64,000 nucleotides of DNA from positions 21,206,001 to 21,270,000 of the forward strand of contig CM075989.1 in the NCBI GenBank assembly GCA_038087875.1, written 5' to 3'. The notes under the pieces are model-generated. The model was given only the letters and a program-made list of their open reading frames with translations, was not told the origin of the DNA and did not search any database. The first letter of the stretch is position 1. Every line of letters begins with the position of its first letter. The translations under genes and the position numbers were made by a program. This DNA comes from Malacoraja senta (Eukaryota). Positions 3,613 through 63,952 of this stretch are shown here, in pieces.

Positions 3613-4020
3613 CCGAGGCGGGCGAGCCAGGCATGCTGTCGGGGATGTGTCCACGACTCACCTGGACCTTCTGTCTTATGTCGATATCTTCAGTGAAGGA
3701 ACCTCTAATGGTGGGATGGACTGAAGAACTAGAGGAGCAAATGGATTGCAATGTGAGTTGTGCCAAGCTGTATATTCCTGTGAGTCTGTTGATCCTCTCA
3801 CCAAAAAAAGACTTTAATTATGCTTCCACCTCTACAAAATTAAAATAAAAAGTGATTGGGACTTTTGGGATCTCTTGTGGAGGTTATGGGGCCAACAAGG
3901 TCTATCTATGGGGACAGTGCAGGAAATGGTGCTGAGGTGGAAGATCAGCCATCATCTTGATGAATGCAGAGCAGACCCGGGCCAAATCACTGCACTTGCT
4001 CCTATTGGTAATTGATTAAA

Positions 4021-4325
4021 TGACACAGCGTGGCAACAGGCCGCCGAGTCCACTCCAACCATGGCTCACACTAACGAGTTCCGTCTTATCCCACTTCCAC
4101 ATCCACTCCCTACGCACTAAGTGGCAATTTACAGAGGGCCGATTAAGCTACAAACCCGCGCGGCTTTGGTGATGTGCGATGAAACCGGAGCACTCGGAGG
4201 AAACCCACACAGTCACAGGGAGAACGTGCAAACTCCATACAGGGGGCATCCGAGGTCAGCATCGAACACGTGGTCTCGGGCCCGGTAAGGCAGCAGCTCT
4301 CCCAGCAGCGTCACTGTGGCGACCC
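4021..4325 (-). mobile_element. HE1-type V-SINE (diverged)
   Basis: Consensus match. Confidence 0.8.
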
Positions 4326-5069: not shown

Positions 5070-5195
5070 GGGGTGTGAGATTGCAACGTTCACGTGGTAT
5101 GCCCTGTTTCGACAAATCGCGTGCGCAATCAAATAAGATCAAGTAGAACAAATTGTCTTGCAACTTTAGGCTGTGCACGCCATACGCAAGAAGAA
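5070..5195 (+). mobile_element. Family 1 HDV-headed short retroposon (internal deletion in the P2 3' strand)
   Basis: TSD gtgactgcctag(g) starting at 5058 and 5196; tail ccatacgcaagaagaa; inserted in an HE1 SINE. Confidence 0.88.
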
Positions 5196-5355
5196 GTGAC
5201 TGCCTAGGTTGTCTCCAGGAGCTCTGGTTTCCTCCTGCAATCCAAAGTCATACAGGTTTATAGCTTATCAAAAATGTGGAAAATCGAAGGTAGACAAAAA
5301 TGTGGAAAATCGAAGGTTGTCCAGCATCTGCAGTTCCTTCTTAAACAAAGGTTTA

Positions 5356-51197: not shown

Positions 51198-51433
51198 ATC
51201 CTACCCTATAGAGACAATTACACTGTTGTAATCATGTATTGTCTTTCTGCTGACTGGTTAGCACGGAAAAAAAGCTTTTCACTGCACATCGTTACATGTG
51301 ACAATAAATTAAACTCAAACTCACACCTGTATGTCTTTGGAGCACCCGGAGAAATCCCACATGGTCACAGGGAGAATGTACGAACTCTGTACAGACACCA
51401 CCCGTAGTCGGGATTGAACCCAAGGTCTCTGGC

Positions 51434-51639
51434 TTCTTCTTCTTGCGTTTGAGGCAGCAGAAGTCTGCAGCAGGGTGATGCCATCCGGTTCGACATCCGT
51501 AGGTGCCCGCCCTACAAAGGGCGCACGCTCCGGGTTGGCGCCAAGCTGCGGCGCATGCTGCTGTCTCTGTTTGTTGTCGTTCGCCTGACTGAGGTGAGTT
51601 GACAGGACTCACCACGGGGAGGTCGACAACATGAGCCCC
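51434..51639 (-). mobile_element. Short non-autonomous retroposon, family 2 (HDV-like ribozyme head, ACGC(AAG)n tail)
   Basis: 11-bp TSD aggtctctggc at 51423-51433 and 51640-51650; inserted in an HE1 SINE; CpG-rich; tail CTCAAACGCAAGAAGAAG. Confidence 0.9.
51573..51639 (-). ncRNA. HDV-like self-cleaving ribozyme, 67 nt
   Basis: Minus strand: P1 GGGGCUC/GAGUCCU, J1/2 AU, P2 GUUGUCG/CGACAAC, P3 ACC/GGU, L3 UCCCCGU, GU after P1, short weak P4, J4/2 CGAA (candidate catalytic C at 51583). Confidence 0.85.
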
Positions 51640-52124
51640 AGGTCTCTGGCAATGTAAGGCAGCAACTCTACCATTGTGTCACTGTGCCGACCGTTCTGGA
51701 GGAGTGTATCACAGATTCATCGAGTCGTACAGCACAGAAGCAGGACCTTCAGCCCAACTTATGAATGCCGACCAAAGTGCCCCATTTATACGTCCCATTT
51801 ACCTCCACTTGGCCCATACCCTTCTAAACCATTTCTATCCATTTACCTGTCTAAGTGTCTTTTAAGTGTTTTGCTGAATGTGTTTTCTGGGTCAGCAGCA
51901 GGGAGGATTGTTAGCCATGTATTCTGAAAGTGGGAAGCGTTATATCAAACATTTATTACTGTTCAACGCAGTTAATAATTTGTAGATATAATGACAACAG
52001 TGTAGCACTTTGGGAACGATCAGACTGATCTTCTATTTCTCTGTCTACTTCTTGTAGTATGAACTTTCCACTTTAATGGAGCTGGTTGGAAATCACAGGT
52101 GTTTGTGTGAATGAAAGAGATTAC

Positions 52125-63752: not shown

Positions 63753-63839
63753 ATGCCAAGCTAAACTAATCTCATTCAGCCTATAGATGATCCACATCCC
63801 TCCATCCCCTCATGAACACTCTTGATGCTAGATTATGGT

Positions 63840-63952
63840 CTCAGGGTGTCACTCAGGGTGTCACTCAGGGTGTCACTCAGGGTGTCACTCAGGGTGTCAC
63901 TCAGGGTGTCACTCAGGGTGTCACTCAGGGTGTCACTCAGGGTGTCACTCAG
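63840..63952. repeat. 12-bp minisatellite (CTCAGGGTGTCA) x ~9.4
   Basis: Perfect tandem units. Confidence 0.97.

What the first reader, a model, noticed from the sequence alone, without database searches (positions are those of the whole stretch)
51434..51639. Second HDV-like ribozyme family heading a 206-bp CpG-rich retroposon
Seen on the minus strand: GGGGCUC-AU-GUUGUCG-ACC-UCCCCGU-GGU-GAGUCCU-GU-(18 nt)-CGAA-CGACAAC, with P1, P2 and P3 fully paired and an 11-bp TSD abutting G1. The body holds a further hairpin (GUGCGCCCU-UUGU-AGGGCGGGCAC). Caveat: the P4 region (ACUCACC) can pair 7 bp with GGUGAGU of the P3/P1 3' strands, a competing fold that could slow or switch cleavage. Retained CpGs and nesting in HE1 suggest it is young.
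Basis: partly seen in the sequence, partly recalled or inferred. Interest (0 to 1): 0.85.

Follow-up and report, generated by a model that had tools for sequence, protein, structure and literature searches.

The report
Ribozyme-headed mini-derivative of Vingi retrotransposon
This 206-base repeat is one of several hundred copies of a shortened retrotransposon, made of the two ends of a 3.3-kb element (likely of the Vingi clade) in the same genome, and it starts with a conserved hepatitis-delta-type RNA fold that likely cuts the element's RNA free; this is a known kind of element, and the "competing fold" is only mutational decay of this one copy.

Summary
In detail: helices, C51583, an 11-bp target-site duplication abutting G1, and an (AAG)n tail are all there. 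The element is not a stand-alone retroposon. It is a short internally deleted element (SIDE): the 5' end and first ~30 codons of a 3.27-kb endonuclease+RT LINE without RNase H (likely Vingi), joined to its last 31 bases. The fold is conserved across 7-8 LINE lineages, with double-sided changes in P1, P2, P3 and P1.1. Copies begin at G1 with unrelated upstream flanks. The proposed switch is not supported: two substitutions, found together only in this copy, break P4 and create the rival helix; the family majority lacks it. Cleavage is untested. Ribozyme-headed SIDEs are known from R2 and L1Tc/ingi. I found no paper stating a ribozyme for Vingi, but three key papers were not held. Side result: 4 of 26 LINE 3' fragments carry an inverted 5' ~90-104 bases ending at G1.

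The parts
51640..51650 (-). 5' copy of the 11-bp target-site duplication, abutting G1
   Evidence: sequence; single in empty host-SINE copies
51573..51639 (-). HDV-like ribozyme fold, 67 nt; predicted cut 5' of G1 (51639); predicted catalytic C57 at 51583; one-pair P1.1 C22-G37 (51618/51603)
   Evidence: cleavage not tested
51585..51598 (-). P4: CUGAC-CUCA-GUCAG in the family majority, broken here by G44C (51596)
   Evidence: the same stem with another loop in L148
51593..51613 (-). rival 7-bp helix of this copy, created by C33U (51607) plus G44C (51596)
   Evidence: pair probability 0.99 here, 0.00 in majority copy L002; both alleles together in 1 genomic match
51554..51572 (-). A/C-rich linker of the LINE 5' UTR; ends at a 47-nt deletion relative to the LINE that removes the ATG
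   Evidence: alignment to LINE copy L242
51465..51553 (-). first ~30 codons of the LINE ORF (..PQLGANPERAPFVGRAPTDVEPDGITLLQ), up to the start of the endonuclease domain
51503..51526 (-). hairpin inside the coding piece; its core recurs in several related LINE lineages; function untested
   Evidence: 5' arm missing in copies L108 and L112
51445..51464 (-). LINE 3' end: last A of the stop codon plus the 3' UTR; the deletion joint lies between 51465 and 51464
   Evidence: the joint L127 243/3266 in contigs of three runs
51434..51444 (-). (AAG)n tail, as in the LINE
51423..51433 (-). 3' copy of the target-site duplication
51338..51690 (-). older tRNA-headed SINE (HE1/V-SINE-like; name recalled) split by the insertion
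   Evidence: 20-30 related pieces in the window

Best explanation
The 206-bp element is the 5' end of a 3.27-kb endonuclease-plus-reverse-transcriptase LINE (likely Vingi clade) joined to that LINE's last 31 bases, and its first 67 bases form a conserved HDV-like fold that likely cuts the RNA just before G1, giving a defined RNA that the LINE protein likely copied into new sites. Steps: (1) a copy is transcribed from upstream host transcription (inferred); (2) the double pseudoknot folds and C57 drives cleavage 5' of G1, as in known HDV-like ribozymes (inferred from the family; fold shown by covariation); (3) the LINE protein recognises the shared 3' end and integrates the RNA by target-primed reverse transcription (inferred; 10-13-bp TSDs and (AAG)n tails shown); (4) inserted copies decay. 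This copy picked up C33U and G44C, which are predicted to trap it in a misfold, so it is likely slow or dead, not a switch.
For: Family: 865 first-look candidates; 201 exact matches to a 24-nt core and 350 to a 23-nt tail word, 0 for reversed controls. Parent: L127 matches element 1-174 at its 5' end and 175-202 at its 3' end, 3.27 kb apart; Pfam Exo_endo_phos and RVT_1, no RNase H hit in the 5 ORF pieces scanned; best relatives are ~1000-aa single-ORF proteins at up to 59% identity, which form a 100/100 branch apart from 8 RNase H-bearing relatives. Vingi is described as single-ORF, APE-type, RNase H-less, sister to Ingi (PMC13708176, passages). The printed Vingi-2_Gav 5' end folds the same way by eye (PMC5786205 supplement). 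Fold: 133 of 136 stem cells paired in 8 lineages; on a gap-free 38-column alignment of 8 rows, 97.7% paired, 8 of 11 pairs with double-sided change, including P1.1 C-G to U-A; 0 of 500 shuffles reach this, slid partners give 46-55%. L148, from another organism, keeps P1 and P4 and has two double-sided changes in P2. 5' end: of 72 unique full-length copies, 58 gave a TSD call; 51 end at G1 or within the starting G run, 5 at -1; 60 upstream flanks share no similarity; four inverted 5' pieces run to position 1-2. Precedent: R2 SIDEs self-cleave (PMC3414825); NARTc, RIME, SIDER (PMC4035085); Vingi-1_EE has many internally deleted derivatives (PMC5786205).
Against: No cleavage assay. RNA reads showed no pile-up of starts at G1 (one polyA run of another organism, about 6% read, depth 5-7 per strand on both strands). 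P1.1 has one pair only (C21 faces U38). J1/2 is 2 nt, and in another HDV-like ribozyme 0-1-nt spacers gave no or little cleavage (PMC4908430); all but one lineage parsed here share the 2-nt spacer. Rfam scores stay below the gathering threshold. 16 of 30 LINE upstream regions gave no hit; by eye several are decayed or rearranged. The parse was chosen by pairing, so paired counts lean in its favour; the tool's 'further pair types' measure was not above shuffles (217 of 500). No labelled Vingi protein was in the tree. Precise 5' ends would also result from an internal promoter.
Confidence: 0.85

Rival explanations
1. The fold is real but its main job is not cutting a co-transcript: the first ~70 bases act as an internal RNA polymerase II promoter, a protective 5' structure or a protein-binding site, and transcription itself starts at G1 (the dual promoter/ribozyme role described for Pr77 of L1Tc). 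Not exclusive of the best explanation.
For: Uniform 5' ends and no upstream carry-over fit an internal promoter equally. Pr77 is both promoter and ribozyme (PMC4035085). Kojima 2018 expects bipartite LINEs to be Pol II transcripts.
Against: The C and A of J4/2, U20 and G25 of L3 (G25 in 8 of 8 aligned rows) and the G1-U wobble are kept across lineages whose stems share little sequence. That pattern points to an active site rather than a DNA motif.
Confidence: 0.1
2. One reading: the GGUGAGU/ACUCACC helix is a built-in switch that slows or toggles cleavage in this family.
For: In this copy the helix is predicted with probability 0.99 and displaces P1, P3 and P4.
Against: Absent from the family majority and from LINE copies L127 and L242; both required alleles occur together in 1 genomic match against 201 for the majority core; P4 is conserved in L148.
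Confidence: 0.03
3. The parent LINE is an RTE-clade (or other) element rather than Vingi; RTE also has one ORF, no RNase H, 5' HDV-like ribozymes and bipartite derivatives.
For: RTE is the commonest source of bipartite elements and has predicted ribozymes (PMC5786205). No labelled reference was in my tree.
Against: The nearest outside relatives in the homolog search carry RNase H, as expected for a sister of Ingi; the C-terminus has a CxCG..H..C motif; the 5' layout matches Vingi-2_Gav (same 2-nt J1/2, 7-nt L3, GU after P1, CGAA).
Confidence: 0.08

Closest known systems
SIDEs / bipartite non-autonomous LINEs with a 5' HDV-like ribozyme: R2 SIDEs of Drosophila (Eickbush and Eickbush 2012, PMC3414825); NARTc, RIME and SIDER of trypanosomatids (PMC4035085)
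   Same: 5' ribozyme plus LINE 3' end, no ORF, mobilised in trans, TSDs, 5' junctions at the ribozyme's first base, further shortening over time.
   Different: Parent is an APE-type RNase H-less LINE in a vertebrate-size genome; dispersed, not rDNA-specific; the 3' part is only 31 nt; ~30 codons are retained; cleavage not assayed.
Vingi clade and its non-autonomous derivatives (Vingi-1_EE; Kojima 2011, not held; described in PMC5786205, PMC13708176)
   Same: Single ORF, APE + RT, no RNase H, ~3.1-3.3 kb, many internal-deletion derivatives; same 5' layout as the printed Vingi-2_Gav.
   Different: [quoted passage not shown]
HDV-like ribozymes (Rfam RF02682; HDV, CPEB3, L1TcRz, R2)
   Same: Order and size of P1, P2, P3, L3, P1.1, P4 and J4/2; G1-U wobble; C and A in J4/2; U and G in L3.
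   Different: 2-nt J1/2; single-pair P1.1 (CPEB3 also has one pair, recalled); below Rfam's gathering score.
Twin priming of L1 (Ostertag and Kazazian; recalled)
   Same: 5'-to-5' joined inverted piece inside one TSD, with microhomology at the outer end.
   Different: Here the inverted piece is always the first ~90-104 nt of the RNA, whatever the length of the 3' piece (4 loci).

Membership tests
HDV-like ribozyme | Nested double pseudoknot: P1, P2, P3 in the HDV order | tested here: met
   double-sided changes in 5 of 7 P1 pairs and 2 of 3 P3 pairs; several pair types at every P2 position
HDV-like ribozyme | P1.1 of one or two pairs | tested here: met
   C22-G37 in 7 rows, U-A in lineage B; a second pair possible only in L148 and L181
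HDV-like ribozyme | Catalytic C and constrained A in J4/2; U and G in L3 | tested here: met
   C57 at 51583; the scanner required C..A in J4/2 and U20, so only G25 (8 of 8) is an independent check; Rfam aligns the same positions
HDV-like ribozyme | P4 (dispensable in some members) | tested here: met
   5-bp P4 in the family majority (p 0.94); broken in this copy
HDV-like ribozyme | Rfam gathering threshold | tested here: not met
   32.8 and 24.5 bits against 44; the model is of a bacterial member
HDV-like ribozyme | Self-cleavage 5' of G1, lost on C-to-U | not testable with these tools
   indirect only: TSD ends and inversion ends at G1; no start pile-up in RNA reads
SIDE / bipartite non-autonomous LINE | Made of the 5' and 3' ends of an autonomous LINE of the same genome | tested here: met
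SIDE / bipartite non-autonomous LINE | Spread by retrotransposition: many loci, TSDs, LINE-type tail | tested here: met
SIDE / bipartite non-autonomous LINE | No Pol III small-RNA head | tested here: inconclusive
   all of the element is accounted for by LINE sequence; no promoter test was run
Vingi clade | Single ORF with APE endonuclease and RT | tested here: met
   (copies here are broken; intact relatives are ~1000 aa)
Vingi clade | No RNase H; sister to Ingi | tested here: met
   no RNase H hit; 100/100 split from RNase H-bearing relatives, which are not labelled as Ingi
Vingi clade | RT groups with named Vingi references | not testable with these tools
   no labelled Vingi protein available; 5' end compared by eye with Vingi-2_Gav

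The most novel reading that the evidence does not exclude
HDV-like ribozymes are a general, so far unstated 5' feature of the Vingi clade (at least 8 lineages here plus the printed Vingi-2_Gav). The Vingi protein would hold the cleaved 5' ~100 nt of its RNA at the upstream target end during integration. That would explain both the run-off inversions that always start at nt 90-104 and end at G1 (4 of 26 fragments) and why Vingi so readily throws off two-ended mini-elements needing only 31 nt of 3' end. It would bear on Vingi-1 gene-writer RNAs, which keep the native 5' UTR.
Probability: 0.35. Interest if true: 0.55.

Novelty: new member of a known kind. Interest (0 to 1): 0.33.

Why it matters
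As filed, it is an ordinary but well-resolved case: one more ribozyme-headed SIDE, here with its parent LINE, a deletion series and cross-lineage covariation that includes the P1.1 pseudoknot. Its value is in extending the ribozyme to the Vingi clade, which the papers I could search do not state. Vingi-1 is being developed for RNA-only gene insertion with its native UTRs (PMC13708176, passages), so a self-cleaving 5' UTR and a natural 205-nt minimal template are directly testable design facts. It also shows how two point mutations in one dead copy can look like a riboswitch.

Tried and rejected
Switch hypothesis: rejected. Covariation among genomic copies: uninformative, 1 double-sided cell in 72 copies; that call's second allele count used position 45 by mistake, so position 44 rests. 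RTE as parent: my first guess, dropped after the LINE was read. Looking for the LINE among ribozyme hits: 0 of 20 loci continued into it; it was found through the odd copy L075. Parent of the other short family: not found in 20 LINE loci or 30 tail-picked loci. A MAFFT alignment of whole ribozymes misplaced P2, so no covariance model was built. L188 passed the first scanner but not the second and was left out of the count; L181 was left out because of its longer J1/2. Expression: no RNA holder listed; the raw-read run gave low depth on both strands and only 2 reads across the joint, so it is not used as evidence of expression or cleavage. The host-versus-majority mismatch count printed is off by a one-base shift and is not used. 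The tool for contigs encoding a given protein was closed, so 5' ends of the closest intact relatives (P0001-P0004) were not seen. Papers not held: Ruminski 2011, Kojima 2011, Webb 2009, Ogiwara 2002; any of the first three may already report this ribozyme in elements now called Vingi. Repbase, Dfam and patents could not be searched. Literature searches; 'Vingi'+'ribozyme' gave 6 papers, and no passage seen assigns a ribozyme to Vingi; 'twin priming'+'Vingi' gave 0. Earlier scan notes: none on this DNA or genome; the 8 listed concern phage, viral and bacterial ribozymes and were not used.

Full report
Observation. On the minus strand the element runs from G1 at 51639 to 51434, between two copies of GCCAGAGACCT, inside an older tRNA-headed SINE. 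The first 67 nt parse as P1 (7 bp, G1-U wobble), AU, P2 (7 bp), P3 (3 bp), a 7-nt L3, GU, a P4 region and CGAA with C at 51583. A descriptor scan of the window found this and two copies of a second short family. Rfam has nothing at gathering level, but its HDV model RF02682 aligns end to end on these 67 nt below threshold.

The family. The window lies in a 1.94-Gb genome; a cartilaginous fish is my inference from the recalled HE1-like SINE, not a tool result. The element has 865 first-look candidates, 201 exact matches to a 24-nt core and 350 to a 23-nt tail word (shared with the LINE), so several hundred copies. The 30 best copies are 2.6% from their majority (biased); 11 copies picked by the tail are 5.1% away. 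CpG sites mutate three times as often as other sites (6.1% against 2.0%). Of 72 unique full-length copies, 58 gave a TSD call, mostly 10-13 bp; 51 end at G1 or inside the starting G run, 5 at -1, 2 further off; 14 gave none. Sixty upstream flanks share no similarity.

The competing fold is private decay. This copy differs from the majority at two ribozyme positions, C33U (51607) and G44C (51596). The majority has P1' GAGCCCU and a perfect P4. In ViennaRNA, which cannot model the pseudoknot, the rival helix has probability 0.99 here and 0.00 in majority copy L002; P1 and P4 go from 0.00 to 0.93 and 0.94. Six genomic places carry C44 in this context and only this one also has U33.

The parent. 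None of 20 ribozyme-picked loci ran on into a LINE, but one (L075) had a different middle. That middle is the 3' end of a LINE ORF. L127 is a full-length copy of 3.27 kb that starts with the same ribozyme and ends with the same tail. Its broken ORF has an APE endonuclease and an RT, no RNase H hit, and a C-terminal CxCG..H..C motif. The short element is LINE nt 1-85, then a 47-nt gap that removes the ATG, then about 30 codons, then the last 31 nt. Longer forms with other joints exist (L272, L119, L260/L097, L259/L102, L252), a deletion series that may be stepwise. The main joint also stands in contigs of three runs from three coded organisms, one of which may be the window's own species. Intact relatives are ~1000-aa single-ORF proteins, separated at 100/100 from eight RNase H-bearing relatives. 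This fits Vingi as described in PMC13708176 (passages). No named Vingi protein was available, so the clade is likely, not proven.

The fold is under selection between lineages. Upstream of related ORFs (metagenome loci, own-genome loci), a relaxed descriptor hit 14 of 30 regions (several copies per lineage), 0 of 30 reverse complements and 2 of 900 shuffles; 133 of 136 stem cells paired in 8 lineage representatives. On a gap-free alignment of the first 38 nt (8 rows: 7 lineages plus this copy), 8 of 11 pairs have double-sided changes, 0 of 500 shuffles reach that, and slid partners pair at 46-55% against 97.7%. The single P1.1 pair changes from C-G to U-A in lineage B. L148, from another organism, keeps P1 and P4 and swaps two P2 pairs. 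The Vingi-2_Gav 5' end printed in the supplement of PMC5786205 has the same layout by eye. Caveats: the parse was chosen by pairing; kin share sequence; one of five measures was not above shuffles.

Mechanism. Shown: structure conservation, 5' ends at G1, shared LINE termini, TSDs. Inferred from known HDV-like retrotransposon ribozymes (PMC6765202, PMC4035085, PMC3414825, PMC3774820; passages): release from a host co-transcript by cleavage 5' of G1, then trans-mobilisation by the LINE protein. An internal promoter would give the same ends and is not excluded. The 2-nt J1/2 could slow cleavage (PMC4908430, passages), though nearly all lineages here share it. RNA reads neither support nor refute cleavage. 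All LINE copies seen are broken, so the system is probably no longer active.

Two side results. First, 4 of 26 distinct LINE 3' fragments (one search gave 25 flank keys, one pooling two loci) carry an inverted piece covering nt 1-2 to 90-104, joined at G1 to 3' pieces of about 160 to 1400 nt, inside TSD candidates of 11-13 bp; in two the TSD end overlaps the inverted piece by 4-6 nt. This looks like twin priming anchored just behind the ribozyme and independently places the RNA 5' end at G1. Two short copies lack its 5' arm, and the 78-nt stretch in lineage A folds no better than shuffles, so its role is open.

Comparison and novelty. Ribozyme-headed short internally deleted elements are established (R2 SIDEs; NARTc, RIME, SIDER), and Vingi is known to produce internal-deletion derivatives (PMC5786205, whole text). 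That paper's list of ribozyme-bearing clades omits Vingi, and my searches found no statement of it, but Ruminski 2011, Kojima 2011 and Webb 2009 were not held, and Repbase and patents were out of reach. Also seen as passages only: PMC5753468, PMC4494074, PMC3391268, PMC5499810; they added background, and the last does not mention HE1 or Vingi. Verdict: a real feature, a new member of a known kind, interest 0.33.

Noticed in passing
window 47121-46981 (-), 63753-63611 (-), 5070-5196 (+); L031-L060, L278-L307: The other ribozyme-headed family (~142 nt) has the same layout with almost no P4, a 9-bp long hairpin in its body and the same ACGCAAGAAG tail; 2837 exact matches to a 25-nt tail word; 27 of 30 tail-picked copies reach the 5' end. 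Its parent LINE was not found.
   Followed up: partly
L086:1088-1573, L092:1315-1577, L138:199-1590, L139:206-638: LINE insertions with an inverted first ~90-104 nt joined at G1 to a 3' fragment, inside TSD candidates; twin-priming-like and always at the same RNA region.
   Followed up: partly
L223/L225/L227/L233, L231/L235, L229/L236: At least three more related LINE lineages in this genome, each with its own HDV-like 5' fold; lineage B has U-A in P1.1; lineage C seems to end in (TAAA)n rather than (AAG)n.
   Followed up: partly
L148:1089-1160: A metagenome contig carries a full-length relative whose ribozyme has an identical P1 and P4 stem and whose tail ends ACGCAAGAAG; closeness of this kind could reflect horizontal transfer, not tested.
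   Followed up: no
L237-L242 and similar hits on small contigs: Many near-full LINE copies on unplaced small contigs share the same stop patterns and 3' flanks, and L242 has two copies in tandem; likely amplified as part of a larger repeat, not by retrotransposition.
   Followed up: no
L073 (about 3800-4130, minus): A copy of the other short family is inserted inside a copy of this family.
   Followed up: no
L153, L154, L164, L197 (ORF start): In this lineage the 78 nt before the endonuclease motif fold into a three-way junction with z of -4.4 to -7.0.
   Followed up: no
window 63820-63950: Tandem array of a 12-nt unit (CTGAGTGACACC on the minus strand), about 9 copies.
   Followed up: no
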